64,000 bases of DNA from NCBI RefSeq assembly GCF_001677475.2, contig NZ_CP015229.1, one strand, 5' to 3'. Source of the stretch: Escherichia coli (GTDB lineage: Bacteria; Pseudomonadota; Gammaproteobacteria; Enterobacterales; Enterobacteriaceae). The notes under the pieces were generated by a model, which worked only from the letters and a program-made list of their open reading frames with translations, was not told where the DNA came from and did no database searches. Position 1 is the first letter of the stretch. Every line of letters begins with the position of its first letter. Shown in pieces: positions 15,213 to 17,316 of the stretch. A program made the position numbers and the translations under genes.

Positions 15213-15234
15213 CCATACTCCATCGCCTGTTTTG

Positions 15235-15269
15235 AAAAGCCCGGTATGCGTTTGCATCCGGGCTTTTTT
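15235..15269 (+). terminator. Rho-independent terminator after feoC
   Basis: AAAAGCCCGG ... CCGGGCTTTT inverted repeat followed by T-run. Confidence 0.7.
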
Positions 15270-15414
15270 GCGTGCAGATTTCCATAAAAATGCAACTCTT
15301 GCAGCACGGCGTAAGTTCCTCTGAAAGCGTCTCGCAGGGATGAAAACTGGCTAATGCACAGGTGTGGAGTGGCGCGTAGAGTCGCGGCATTCAAATAACA
15401 GGTGAAGGAACGCC

Positions 15415-16308
15415 ATGAGCAAAAAGCAGAGTTCCACCCCACACGATGCGCTGTTCAAACTCTTTTTACGCCAACCGGAGACGGCACGCGATTTTCTTGC
15501 GTTTCATTTACCGGCACCCATTCACGCGCTCTGTGATATGAAAACCCTCAAGCTGGAGTCGAGCAGCTTTATTGATGACGATCTGCGTGAAAGCTATTCC
15601 GACGTGCTGTGGTCGGTGAAAACGGAACAAGGACCAGGATATATCTATTGTCTGATTGAACATCAAAGCACCTCAAACAAACTGATCGCATTTCGCATGA
15701 TGCGTTACGCCATTGCCGCAATGCAAAATCACCTTGATGCCGGATACAAAACGTTGCCGATGGTGGTGCCATTGTTGTTTTACCACGGTATTGAAAGCCC
15801 CTATCCCTATTCGCTGTGTTGGCTGGATTGTTTTGCCGATCCCAACCTGGCAAGGCAGCTTTATGCCTCTGCATTTCCGCTGATTGATGTCACCGTCATG
15901 CCTGATGATGAAATCATGCAGCACCGACGCATGGCGCTGCTGGAGTTAATTCAAAAACATATCCGTCAACGCGATCTGATGGGGCTGGTAGAGCAAATGG
16001 CCTGCTTATTAAGTAGTGGATACGCTAATGACAGACAAATCAAAGGGCTGTTTAATTACATCTTGCAAACCGGCGATGCGGTACGTTTTAACGATTTTAT
16101 CGACGGCGTTGCCGAACGTTCACCGAAACACAAGGAGAGTTTAATGACTATTGCGGAAAGATTGCGGCAGGAAGGGTTTCAGAAAGGTATACGTACCAAC
16201 GCCCTAAATATTGCCAAAACCATGCTGGATGCCGGAGTCTCTCTTGAGGACGTTCTGCGATTTACCAGCCTGACGGTTGAAGACCTTGCTGAAATAAATC
16301 ATCAATAA
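15415..16308 (+). CDS. rpnA: RpnA (YhgA), Rpn-family PD-(D/E)XK recombination-promoting nuclease
   Basis: 297-aa ORF; family recognised from sequence and position between feoC and bioH. Confidence 0.88.
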
Positions 16309-16325
16309 CGTAAAGGATGGTTTTA

Positions 16326-16499
16326 ATGACAGATGCAGAAAGAGAATATCTTATTAGTTACCTGATTGGTTATTTATTGGGTCGACGCCTGGAAGCCCTG
16401 GATATCGCCAAAAGAATGCTGTAATCCTGAGTCCCTCTTGCGGACATCATGCGTTTTACCGGGGTGTCAGAAGAAGAGTTGGCTGCGGCGAGTCAGTAA
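16326..16499 (+). pseudogene. Degenerate duplicate of the Rpn C-terminal tail: intact 32-codon ORF with its own Shine-Dalgarno, then stop and frame change
   Basis: ATG 16326 preceded by AAGGA (16313-16317) encodes MTDAEREYLISYLIGYLLGRRLEALDIAKRML-stop; the next frame encodes VPLADIMRFTGVSEEELAAASQ-stop; together these parallel the last ~54 aa of RpnA ([12 protein letters not shown]...[34 protein letters not shown]). Confidence 0.5.
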
Positions 16500-16527
16500 A
16501 GTTCTGTCTCGCCATTTCAAAAGCTGT

Positions 16528-17316
<789 letters not shown>

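What the first reader, a model, noticed from the sequence alone, without database searches (positions are those of the whole stretch)
16326..16499. Degenerate second copy of the Rpn C-terminal tail immediately downstream of rpnA
Eighteen nt after the rpnA stop, a new ATG with its own AAGGA opens a 32-codon ORF (MTDAEREYLISYLIGYLLGRRLEALDIAKRML) that resembles the start of the RpnA tail (MT-AER, L-IAK-ML). After a stop and a frame change the next frame encodes VPLADIMRFTGVSEEELAAASQ, resembling the end of RpnA ([23 protein letters not shown]). This looks like a decayed orphan tail, either a remnant of a neighbouring rpn paralog or a free-standing antitoxin-like gene that has been partly inactivated. 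The intact 32-codon piece could still be translated.
Basis: seen in the sequence. Interest (0 to 1): 0.5.

Follow-up and report, generated by a model that had tools for sequence, protein, structure and literature searches.

The report
Dead spare antitoxin tail after rpnA
Just after the toxin-antitoxin gene rpnA lies a broken second copy of its small antitoxin tail, a known kind of duplicate; comparison with other strains shows that the well-studied K-12 RpnA tail was built from this downstream copy.

Summary
Window 16326-16499 is a single reading frame, with no frame change, broken by two in-frame stops (TAA 16422, TGA 16428). It is a significant paralog of the RpnA C-terminal tail: protein z=16.8, a 91-nt direct repeat at 73% identity, and E=3.5e-12 to PDB 7TH0 (K-12 RpnA-S).

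It is a pseudogenised free-standing "RpnSs"-type gene, the kind Zhong et al. 2023 described downstream of rpnE (ypaA) and rpnC. Intact 57-aa orthologs (Pfam HTH_Rpn_C) sit in the same feoC-rpnA-X-bioH position in E. ruysiae. This two-tail form occurs in 853 of 5,426 complete E. coli genomes. At least 851 of them carry the TAA stop, and 24 also carry the window's TGA.

K-12 lacks 206 nt (about 16177-16382). Its RpnA tail is 90.5% identical to this downstream copy and only 67.6% to the window's in-gene tail, so K-12 RpnA is a fusion onto this cassette. Other fusion and mosaic alleles exist.

The in-gene tail shows only synonymous variation. The downstream copy shows 23 nonsynonymous changes in 25 variable codons. 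The TAA lies at the codon homologous to E25, where an engineered stop abolished RpnA-S antitoxin activity.

Verdict: an ordinary decaying duplicate and a new member of a known kind, with modest evolutionary interest.

The parts
15415..16308 (+). rpnA (yhgA), 297 aa: the full-length RpnA-L toxin/nuclease, with the 'tail 1' type of C-terminus
   Evidence: ORF list. It is 100% identical to cluster representative P0052, named 'recombination-promoting nuclease RpnA [E. coli]'. Precomputed Pfam domains are PF04754 and PF27070.
16132..16146 (+). Internal ribosome-binding site AAGGAG (16132-16137) and internal start ATG (16144-16146) of the in-gene antitoxin RpnA-S
   Evidence: Sequence. Homologous to the K-12 internal translation start that Zhong et al. 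verified by mutagenesis (PMC10400941).
16144..16308 (+). Tail 1: the in-gene RpnA-S reading frame (54 aa, [54 protein letters not shown])
   Evidence: Across 15 loci its 7 variable codons are all synonymous, indicating purifying selection.
16177..16382 (+). The 206-nt segment absent from K-12-type rpnA: the distal part of tail 1, its stop, the spacer, and codons 1-19 of tail 2. Its ends lie at GGG/GGT glycine codons that close four-residue units
   Evidence: Alignments A1 and A2. In 4,571 of 5,424 matching genomes the query spans about 255 nt instead of 461 nt.
16309..16325 (+). 17-nt spacer holding a duplicated ribosome-binding site, AAGGA (16313-16317), 8 nt before the ATG
   Evidence: repeat D2. 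MG1655 rpnE-ypaA has the same architecture: TAA, a 12-nt spacer with AAGGAG, then ATG.
16326..16499 (+). Tail 2: the pseudogenised free-standing rpnS paralog ('rpnA-Ss'), 57 codons in one frame with two internal stops
   Evidence: PGAP annotates the orthologous stretch in some strains as a pseudogene labelled 'transposase; internal stop; missing N-terminus'.
16326..16424 (+). Residual 32-codon ORF, corresponding to predicted helix 1 only. It includes the units YLIS (16347-16358), YLIG (16359-16370), YLLG (16371-16382) and RRLE (16383-16394)
   Evidence: The AlphaFold model of the intact ortholog has helix 1 at residues 3-33. The ORF is deposited as an 'uncharacterised protein' (A0A2X6R0Z8) seen on 648 contigs. 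A variant with one extra YLIS unit exists (P0030).
16422..16424 (+). TAA nonsense at codon 33. Intact orthologs have CAA, GAA or Tyr here. This is the position homologous to E25 of K-12 RpnA-S
   Evidence: At least 851 of 853 long-form complete E. coli genomes carry it. An engineered E25 stop abolished antitoxin activity (PMC10400941).
16428..16430 (+). Second nonsense, TGA at codon 35 (GGA elsewhere); a recent mutation specific to a sub-lineage
   Evidence: Found in 24 of 5,426 complete genomes, e.g. strain 1190.
16431..16499 (+). Distal tail 2 (VPLADIMRFTGVSEEELAAASQ plus stop), equivalent to helices 2-3. It is the positional ortholog of the K-12 RpnA C-terminus
   Evidence: The 3' 105 nt of tail 2 (16395-16499) is 90.5% identical to the K-12 tail, against 67.6% for tail 1. 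The downstream flank up to bioH is shared.
16487..16513 (+). Conserved hairpin spanning the tail 2 stop (which is the K-12 rpnA stop), between the convergent genes rpnA and bioH
   Evidence: Inverted repeat I5. The RNA fold has z=-2.07. The sequence is conserved in K-12.
16528..17298 (-). bioH, the convergent downstream neighbour that fixes the synteny

Best explanation
Window 16326-16499 is a pseudogene of a free-standing RpnS-type small gene, here called rpnA-Ss. It is a tandem duplicate of the rpnA 3' cassette, which comprises the internal ribosome-binding site, the ATG and a three-helix HTH_Rpn_C tail.

Where the duplicate is intact (E. ruysiae and relatives), it encodes a 57-aa protein predicted to fold like the RpnA-S antitoxin. 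In the E. coli lineage that keeps the two-tail arrangement, it was inactivated by a nonsense mutation at codon 33. The window's sub-lineage added a second nonsense at codon 35. What remains is a 32-codon ORF covering only helix 1. This ORF is probably still transcribed and may be translated, but it most likely has no antitoxin activity.

The same cassette is the source of the K-12 RpnA tail. A 206-nt deletion between four-residue-unit boundaries of tail 1 and tail 2 fused the rpnA body to the distal part of the downstream copy.

Shown: the homology, the synteny, the intact orthologs, the allele frequencies, the pattern of substitutions, and the orthology of the K-12 tail with tail 2.

Inferred: the direction of the event (deletion rather than insertion), the loss of function, and the expression state.
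For: Homology
- z=16.8; direct repeats that include the ribosome-binding site and ATG; 7TH0, E=3.5e-12.
- The AlphaFold model of the intact ortholog P0008 is a three-helix protein (pLDDT 82.7). Its best PDB match is 7TH0 (probability 1.00, TM 0.78).

Intact orthologs in identical synteny
- P0005-P0010 and loci L005-L011 and L105-L108, each flagged PF27070 HTH_Rpn_C.

Pseudogene state
- TAA+GGA in 827 complete E. coli genomes, TAA+TGA in 24, CAA in 0. All 13 sampled long-form E. coli genomes carry the TAA.
- Tail 1 has 7 of 7 variable codons synonymous; tail 2 has 23 of 25 nonsynonymous. Among intact copies dN/dS is about 0.4-1.9 for tail 2, while dN=0 for tail 1.
- PGAP calls it a pseudogene in some records.

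Loss of function by analogy
- Zhong et al. report that a stop at E25 of RpnA-S abolishes repression. E25 aligns with codon 33.

Relation to K-12
-.
- Independent fusions and mosaics exist: P0060/L102 (junction at RFT|GLSEE), P0053, L011 and L103.

Same architecture as rpnE-ypaA in MG1655.
Against: - There are no expression data for this strain type. Published ribosome profiling was done in K-12, which lacks the element.
- Every sampled E. coli copy keeps the ribosome-binding site, the ATG and an uninterrupted 32-codon ORF. That is also what a retained micro-protein would look like, although diversity is too low (pi about 0.013) for this to carry weight.
- The direction of change is not settled by phylogeny. 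The short form also occurs in E. whittamii, so both forms cross species boundaries.
- The only long form that would be the exact parent of the K-12 deletion (L011) is one 5x-coverage metagenome contig, and it is absent from the 5,426 complete genomes. L105 could be a polishing chimera.
- Pfam-A as served by profile_search gave no hit to the stop-masked sequence.
Confidence: 0.82

Rival explanations
1. Spare-cassette model. The downstream tail, even when broken, is kept because it serves as a DNA reservoir. Recombination between the in-gene tail and the downstream tail swaps or remodels the oligomerisation/antitoxin helix, changing toxin-antitoxin pairing specificity. K-12 RpnA would be one such product. 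This is compatible with the pseudogene reading but adds an adaptive role.
For: - At least three different tail 1/tail 2 junctions exist in natural alleles: QEG|EQSK in K-12, LRFT|GLSEE in P0060/L102 and P0057, and IAK|IMLESG in P0013.
- P0053 carries a tail 1-like ADVLRFT patch in a K-12-type tail.
- L103 has a third in-gene tail that shares RRLEALDIA with the window's tail 2.
- The K-12 junction lies exactly at a four-residue-unit boundary.
Against: - Mosaic alleles are expected for any tandem paralogs without invoking selection.
- Several of the mosaics are single metagenome contigs.
- There is no sign of programmed or frequent switching: 851 of 853 long-form genomes share one state.
- No recombination sites or dedicated recombinase are evident.
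Confidence: 0.25
2. The 32-codon ORF is a functional micro-protein: a helix-1-only peptide that pairs with an RpnA helix 1 or with another partner. On this view the TAA is an adaptive truncation rather than decay.
For: - The TAA allele is essentially fixed in long-form E. coli.
- The ribosome-binding site (8-nt spacing) and ATG are conserved in all 13 sampled genomes, and one ribosome-binding-site-adjacent change occurs in VCSW7 only.
- Helix 1 is the dimerisation helix in the RpnA-S crystal structure (PMC10400941).
- Unit-number variation (P0030, with an extra YLIS) resembles the variation seen in active RpnS proteins.
Against: - Within E. coli, the variable codons in positions 1-32 are A4V, S11I and G19D, plus one synonymous change, which shows no purifying signal.
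- Its helix 1 (YLISYLIGYLLG) is unrelated in sequence and 4 residues longer than the RpnA-L helix 1 of the same strain. Zhong et al. showed that a mismatch of one four-residue unit abolishes neutralisation.
- The K-12 RpnA-S E25-stop construct was inactive.
- The region after the stop decays at a similar rate.
Confidence: 0.07
3. Remnant of a once complete neighbouring rpn paralog (a tandem rpn gene array) whose N-terminal domain has been deleted.
For: Zhong et al. report tandem rpn gene arrays in some genomes. PGAP labels the fragment 'missing N-terminus'.
Against: - Only 17 nt lie between the rpnA stop and the ATG.
- The duplicated unit starts at the internal ribosome-binding site.
- Intact orthologs are 57-aa stand-alone genes in every lineage found, and none has an N-terminal domain.
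- The architecture is identical to rpnE-ypaA.
Confidence: 0.02

Closest known systems
RpnSs: free-standing RpnS homologs encoded downstream of rpn genes (ypaA/rpnE-Ss in K-12; rpnC-Ss in some E. coli). Zhong et al., PNAS 2023, PMC10400941
   Same: - Lies immediately downstream of an rpn gene on the same strand.
- The spacer repeats the internal ribosome-binding site and ATG context: window TAA-17 nt-ATG with AAGGA, against MG1655 rpnE TAA-12 nt-ATG with AAGGAG.
- Encodes an HTH_Rpn_C three-helix tail most similar to tails of the RpnA locus.
- Helix 1 shows four-residue unit variation.
- It can be lost by fusion to the rpn body, which the paper states in general terms and which is seen here for K-12 rpnA.
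   Different: - It is linked to rpnA, which the paper's main text does not list as having a downstream copy. The supplement could not be read.
- In E. coli it is a pseudogene (nonsense at codon 33, with or without codon 35).
- Its helix-1 units are hydrophobic (YLIS/YLIG/YLLG) rather than 'one hydrophobic plus three charged or glycine residues'.
- It is much more diverged from the upstream tail (about 68-73% at the DNA level) than ypaA is from the rpnE tail.
RpnA-S of E. coli K-12: the intragenic antitoxin of RpnA-L (crystal structure PDB 7TH0)
   Same: - Residues 19-57 of the window pseudo-protein align with residues 11-49 of 7TH0 (E=3.5e-12).
- The 3' 105 nt is 90.5% identical, and the flank up to bioH is the same, so the two are positional orthologs.
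- The model of the intact ortholog matches 7TH0 best.
   Different: - The K-12 copy is translated from inside rpnA and is also the C-terminus of RpnA-L. The window copy is a separate, broken ORF.
- The first 11 residues of K-12 RpnA-S ([11 protein letters not shown]) come from tail 1, not tail 2.
- The window copy has 8 more residues in helix 1.
Stand-alone DUF4351 (PF14261) / HTH_Rpn_C (PF27070) small genes
   Same: Small stand-alone ORFs homologous to Rpn C-termini. The intact orthologs are flagged PF27070 in the precomputed annotation.
   Different: The window copy itself is interrupted by stops. A Pfam-A scan of the stop-masked sequence with the available library gave no hit.

Membership tests
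RpnSs (downstream free-standing RpnS homolog; Zhong et al. 2023) | Located directly downstream of an rpn gene, on the same strand | tested here: met
   rpnA stops at 16306-16308 and the ATG is at 16326 on the + strand. Synteny feoC-rpnA-X-bioH holds in all related loci.
RpnSs (downstream free-standing RpnS homolog; Zhong et al. 2023) | Own ribosome-binding site and start codon that duplicate the internal translation-start context of the upstream gene | tested here: met
   Repeat D2 pairs TTTAATGACTATTGCGGAAAGA with TTTAATGACAGATGCAGAAAGA at 82% identity. AAGGA lies 8 nt upstream of the ATG. This is comparable to rpnE-ypaA.
RpnSs (downstream free-standing RpnS homolog; Zhong et al. 2023) | Sequence homology to the RpnS tail of the same locus (three-helix HTH_Rpn_C) | tested here: met
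   Searches (z=16.8; 7TH0, E=3.5e-12), PF27070 on intact orthologs, and the structure model with its best match 7TH0.
RpnSs (downstream free-standing RpnS homolog; Zhong et al. 2023) | Uninterrupted ORF encoding the whole small protein | tested here: not met
   The window has TAA at codon 33 and TGA at codon 35, so it is a pseudogene of this family. The feature is met in E. ruysiae-type orthologs (57 aa).
RpnSs (downstream free-standing RpnS homolog; Zhong et al. 2023) | The protein is synthesised (shown by SPA tagging for YpaA) | not testable with these tools
   No expression data exist for two-tail strains. K-12 ribosome profiling does not cover this element.
RpnS antitoxin (functional) | Binds and neutralises the cognate RpnL; requires the full small protein and a matching helix-1 length | not testable with these tools
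   Indirect evidence only. An engineered stop at the homologous codon (E25) inactivated K-12 RpnA-S, and a one-unit length mismatch abolished neutralisation for RpnC (PMC10400941). Helix 1 of tail 2 differs from tail 1 in both sequence and length.
Rpn four-residue (dodecamer) repeat variation | Helix 1 varies between strains by units of 4 residues, typically one hydrophobic plus three charged or glycine residues | tested here: inconclusive
   - Unit-number variation is present: P0030 has an extra YLIS, and tail 1 alleles occur with or without TNAL.
- The composition of the tail 2 units (YLIS/YLIG/YLLG) is atypical.
- Tandem Repeats Finder reports no array at its threshold.

The most novel reading that the evidence does not exclude
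The rpnA 3' end is a two-cassette tail locus. Recombination between the expressed in-gene tail and a silent or decaying downstream tail repeatedly generates new chimeric RpnA-L/RpnA-S pairs, and so new toxin-antitoxin pairing specificities. The K-12 RpnA-S that was crystallised and characterised would be one such chimera: 11 residues from tail 1 and 38 from tail 2. On this reading the pseudogene is retained as raw material for switching and not simply as decay.
Probability: 0.25. Interest if true: 0.6.

Novelty: new member of a known kind. Interest (0 to 1): 0.38.

Why it matters
The finding extends the published RpnSs phenomenon to rpnA, the best-characterised Rpn toxin-antitoxin pair. It also shows that the reference K-12 RpnA tail is not the tail carried by about 16% of complete E. 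coli genomes, including UTI89, 536 and the type strain ATCC 11775.

People working on Rpn defence systems should know three things:
- RpnA comes in at least two non-interchangeable tail types.
- The K-12 antitoxin appears to be a fusion product of a downstream cassette.
- Nature has repeated the authors' E25-stop experiment.

This gives a concrete natural system for testing how tail swapping changes toxin-antitoxin specificity. For genome annotation, the 32-aa 'uncharacterised protein' and the 'transposase' pseudogene calls at this locus should be unified as an rpnS-like pseudogene.

Tried and rejected
- Pfam-A scan of the stop-masked 57-mer: no hit. The served library probably lacks PF27070, or the X residues and short length hurt the score. 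I relied on the precomputed PF27070 flags and on the PDB match instead.
- Tandem Repeats Finder on 16100-16530: nothing. The YLIS/YLIG/YLLG dodecamers are too diverged for it.
- Inverted repeat 16293-16313 / 16358-16378, which would enclose the tail 2 ribosome-binding site and ATG: the fold is not better than shuffles (z=+0.89). Rejected as a regulatory hairpin.
- Promoter and terminator scan of 15900-16700: none. Rfam: nothing in the element.
- The genome-contig scan with RpnA returned mostly distant Rpn paralogs (Photorhabdus, Xenorhabdus, Erwinia). Among Escherichia it returned only E. whittamii, plus an RpnB-like locus (L013). It did not return E. coli, E. ruysiae, E. albertii, E. fergusonii or E. 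marmotae, so ancestral-state inference from outgroups could not be completed.
- Search for the origin of tail 1: the protein search gave only 7 locus-specific hits. Plasmid tblastn gave only hits below 60% identity to other Rpn tails, and the near-identical 'plasmid' hits are 4.9-Mb chromosomes mislabelled in PLSDB. No donor was identified.
- L011-type and L105-type intact long forms: absent from the 5,426 complete genomes. I treat them as weak evidence, since each is a single metagenome contig and L105 may be a polishing chimera.
- fetched the wrong K-12 region because that assembly is rearranged. Corrected with NC_000913.3.
- My first tail 1 coordinates were off by two bases, which made that protein comparison meaningless. 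It was redone. The DNA result stands.
- The supplement of Zhong et al. is not held, so I could not check whether an rpnA downstream copy appears in their SI figures or datasets.

Full report
**Context.** The window carries feoB-feoC-rpnA(yhgA)-bioH-gntX-nfuA of an Escherichia coli-type genome. rpnA (15415-16308, + strand) encodes a 297-aa protein. It is 100% identical to a cluster representative named 'recombination-promoting nuclease RpnA [Escherichia coli]'. bioH converges from the minus strand (16528-17298). The finding concerns the 219 nt between them.

**Observation check.**
- After the rpnA stop (16306-16308) comes a 17-nt spacer with AAGGA (16313-16317), and then an ATG at 16326.
- Translating 16326-16499 in one frame gives MTDAEREYLISYLIGYLLGRRLEALDIAKRML*S*VPLADIMRFTGVSEEELAAASQ*.
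The 'frame change' is wrong. The lesion is two in-frame nonsense codons, TAA at 16422-16424 and TGA at 16428-16430.
- The similarity to the in-gene RpnA tail (16144-16308, [54 protein letters not shown]) is highly significant:
  - local BLOSUM62 score 89, against 20.7 +/- 4.1 in 5,000 shuffles;
  - DNA local score 57, against 15.6 +/- 2.2;
  - two collinear direct repeats, one of 91 nt at 73% identity and one of 22 nt at 82% that covers the TTTAATGAC start context.
- The difference in repeat spacing (194 vs 182 nt) is 12 nt, one four-residue unit.

**What it is.** Zhong et al. (PNAS 2023, PMC10400941) made three relevant points:
- rpn genes are toxin-antitoxin 'genes within genes'. The full-length RpnL nuclease is toxic, and the C-terminal tail is translated separately from an internal start as RpnS, the antitoxin.
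- Second, free-standing copies ('RpnSs') lie downstream of rpnE (ypaA) and, in some strains, of rpnC.

The window element has exactly this architecture. In MG1655, rpnE ends in TAA, followed by a 12-nt spacer with AAGGAG, then the ATG of ypaA. Here rpnA ends in TAA, followed by a 17-nt spacer with AAGGA, then an ATG.

Their contigs show the same synteny, feoC-rpnA (297 or 293 aa)-57-aa gene-bioH. They come from Escherichia ruysiae genomes, from assemblies labelled E. coli that carry the E. ruysiae-type sequence, and from metagenomes.

An AlphaFold model of the E. ruysiae protein is a three-helix protein (helices 3-33, 38-45 and 49-56; pLDDT 82.7). Its best PDB match is 7TH0, 'E. coli RpnA-S' (probability 1.00, TM 0.78). 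The window pseudo-protein itself matches 7TH0 by sequence, with residues 19-57 aligned to 11-49 at E=3.5e-12.

**Population state.**

| State in 5,426 complete E. coli genomes | Genomes |
|---|---|
| Two-tail ('long') form | 853 |
| Long form with TAA at codon 33 and GGA at codon 35 | 827 |
| Long form with TAA and TGA (the window's allele) | 24 |
| Intact CAA version | 0 |

- Long-form genomes include UTI89, 536, SF-468, an APEC O1:K1:H7 strain and the type strain ATCC 11775. To my knowledge these are phylogroup B2 strains.
- At least 851 of 853 long-form genomes are therefore pseudogenes, and all 13 that I fetched have the TAA.
- PGAP annotates the stretch in a few records as a 'transposase' pseudogene ('internal stop; incomplete; missing N-terminus').
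- The 32-aa ORF is deposited as an 'uncharacterised protein' on 648 contigs.

**Selection.**
- Across 15 two-tail loci, the in-gene tail has 7 variable codons, all synonymous. The downstream copy has 25 variable codons, 23 of them nonsynonymous.
- Even among intact copies, dN/dS for tail 2 is about 0.4-1.9, while dN=0 for tail 1.
- Within E. coli, codons 1-32 show A4V, S11I, G19D and one synonymous change. The part after the stop decays at a similar or slightly higher rate.
- There is no sign of purifying selection on the residual ORF. Diversity is too low to exclude it.

**Relation to K-12.**
- K-12 RpnA (292 aa) ends [49 protein letters not shown].
- Aligned to the window, K-12 lacks 206 nt (about 16177-16382): the distal part of tail 1, its stop, the spacer, and codons 1-19 of tail 2.
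- From the ALxIAK motif to the stop, the K-12 tail is 90.5% identical to the window's tail 2 and only 67.6% identical to tail 1. The flanks are 97.4% (rpnA body) and 95.7% (bioH) identical.
- The 'degenerate second copy' is therefore the positional ortholog of the C-terminus of K-12 RpnA, the very tail that was crystallised.
- The window's own RpnA carries a different tail.
- Both deletion ends fall just after a glycine codon that closes a four-residue unit (RQEG| and YLLG|). The event is of the same register as the dodecamer expansions and contractions described by Zhong et al.

**Other chimeras.**
- P0060/P0057 join tail 1 up to LRFT with GLSEEELAAASQ. P0060 lies directly beside bioH in an NCBI E. 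coli assembly (L102).
- P0053 has a tail 1-like ADVLRFT patch.
- L011 is a long form whose tail 2 carries EQSKALHIAKIMLESG. It is the exact parent expected for the K-12 deletion, with GGG microhomology at the junction.
- L103 has a third in-gene tail (…HRQGVQQGVQQGRRLEALDIAQTML…), which shares RRLEALDIA with the window's tail 2, plus an intact free-standing tail.
- Caveats: L011 and L105 are single metagenome contigs not found among complete genomes. The short form also occurs in E. whittamii. The direction long to short is thus inferred from mechanism and from the depth of tail 1/tail 2 divergence, not proven by phylogeny.

**Likely function.**
- For the window's copy, I commit to 'non-functional pseudogene' (0.82).
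- The TAA lies at the codon homologous to E25 of K-12 RpnA-S. Zhong et al. report that a stop introduced at E25 abolished the block of RpnA-dependent SOS induction. By analogy, a helix-1-only product is inactive as an antitoxin.
- Helix 1 of tail 2 (EYLISYLIGYLLGRRLE) is unrelated to helix 1 of this strain's RpnA-L and longer by 4 residues. The same paper shows that a mismatch of one four-residue unit abolishes neutralisation for RpnC.
- The ORF sits 17 nt downstream of the abundant internal rpnA-S reading frame and has a good ribosome-binding site, so transcription and some translation are plausible. This is an inference.

**Rivals.**
- (i) The cassette is maintained as recombination raw material for tail switching. 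This is compatible with the data but needs no selection (0.25, not exclusive of the best explanation).
- (ii) The 32-aa peptide is a functional micro-protein (0.07).
- (iii) It is a remnant of a full rpn paralog (0.02). The 17-nt spacer and the stand-alone intact orthologs argue against it.
- No RNA family, terminator or promoter pattern, or significant RNA structure involves the 5' part. A modest conserved hairpin spans the distal stop.

**Comparison with what is known, and novelty.**
- It works like, and by architecture and homology belongs to, the RpnSs class. One defining feature, an intact ORF, is not met in this window, so it is a pseudogene of that class.
- The main text of the 2023 paper names downstream copies only for rpnE and rpnC. 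Its supplement was not available.
- I rate it a new member of a known kind.
- What is new: rpnA also has such a copy, intact in E. ruysiae and dead in E. coli; the K-12 RpnA tail derives from it; and the natural nonsense coincides with the published E25 stop.
- Interest is modest (0.38). It is useful to Rpn specialists and for annotation, but it is not a surprise in kind.

Noticed in passing
window 16487-16513: A GC-rich hairpin (GGCGAGTCAG / CTGTCTCGCC) whose loop holds the TAA that ends tail 2, which is the rpnA stop in K-12. It lies between the convergent genes rpnA and bioH, and the fold has z=-2.07 against shuffles. It is conserved in K-12 and has no T-run, so it does not fit the terminator pattern. 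It may be a 3'-end stabiliser or a barrier for convergent transcripts.
   Followed up: partly
window 15234-15307: The feoC-rpnA spacer gives a weak Rfam match to Bp2_287 (26.8 bits against a gathering score of 70; E=0.002). The sequence reads as a GC hairpin followed by a T-run (aaaagcccgg…ccgggctttttt), most simply the feoABC intrinsic terminator and not an sRNA.
   Followed up: no
window 16192-16203 (TNAL codons of the in-gene tail); loci L097, L100, L105: The in-gene RpnA tail varies between strains by a 4-residue indel ([14 protein letters not shown] vs FQKGIRAIAK), giving 297- and 293-aa RpnA. This is an instance of the four-residue-unit variation of Zhong et al.
   Followed up: partly
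L012 1501-3645 (E. whittamii); L103 150-700 (metagenome): In E. whittamii, rpnA is split at about residue 215 by an insertion carrying a 376-aa TnpB-like ORF, and the distal fragment has a K-12-type single tail. Contig L103 shares the same insertion junction but carries a third in-gene tail type plus an intact free-standing downstream tail. Tail arrangement is therefore polymorphic within that lineage too.
   Followed up: partly
window 16317-16424: An in-frame ATG at 16317, overlapping the AAGGA, gives a 35-codon version (MVLMTDAER…) of the residual ORF. One JGI gene call uses it (P0212). The ATG at 16326 is the one homologous to the internal rpnA-S start.
   Followed up: no
E. coli genome hits H33-H40 (e.g. 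L003, L004): In a subset of short-form E. coli genomes, rpnA itself is annotated as a pseudogene lacking its N-terminus ('Rpn family…missing N-terminus' or 'Rpn/YhgA-type HTH domain-containing protein'). These strains keep only the tail region beside bioH, possibly an orphan antitoxin.
   Followed up: no
PLSDB records NZ_CP141089.1, NZ_CP134663.1, NZ_OL790696.1: Records of 4.8-4.9 Mb in the 'plasmids' collection are evidently E. coli chromosomes. They produced the only high-identity 'plasmid' hits to both tails.
   Followed up: no
L110 7817-8002 (MG1655 ypaA, b4543): RefSeq annotates ypaA (rpnE-Ss) as a pseudogene, although Zhong et al. detected the tagged protein. The same mis-annotation risk applies to rpnS-like small genes generally.
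   Followed up: no
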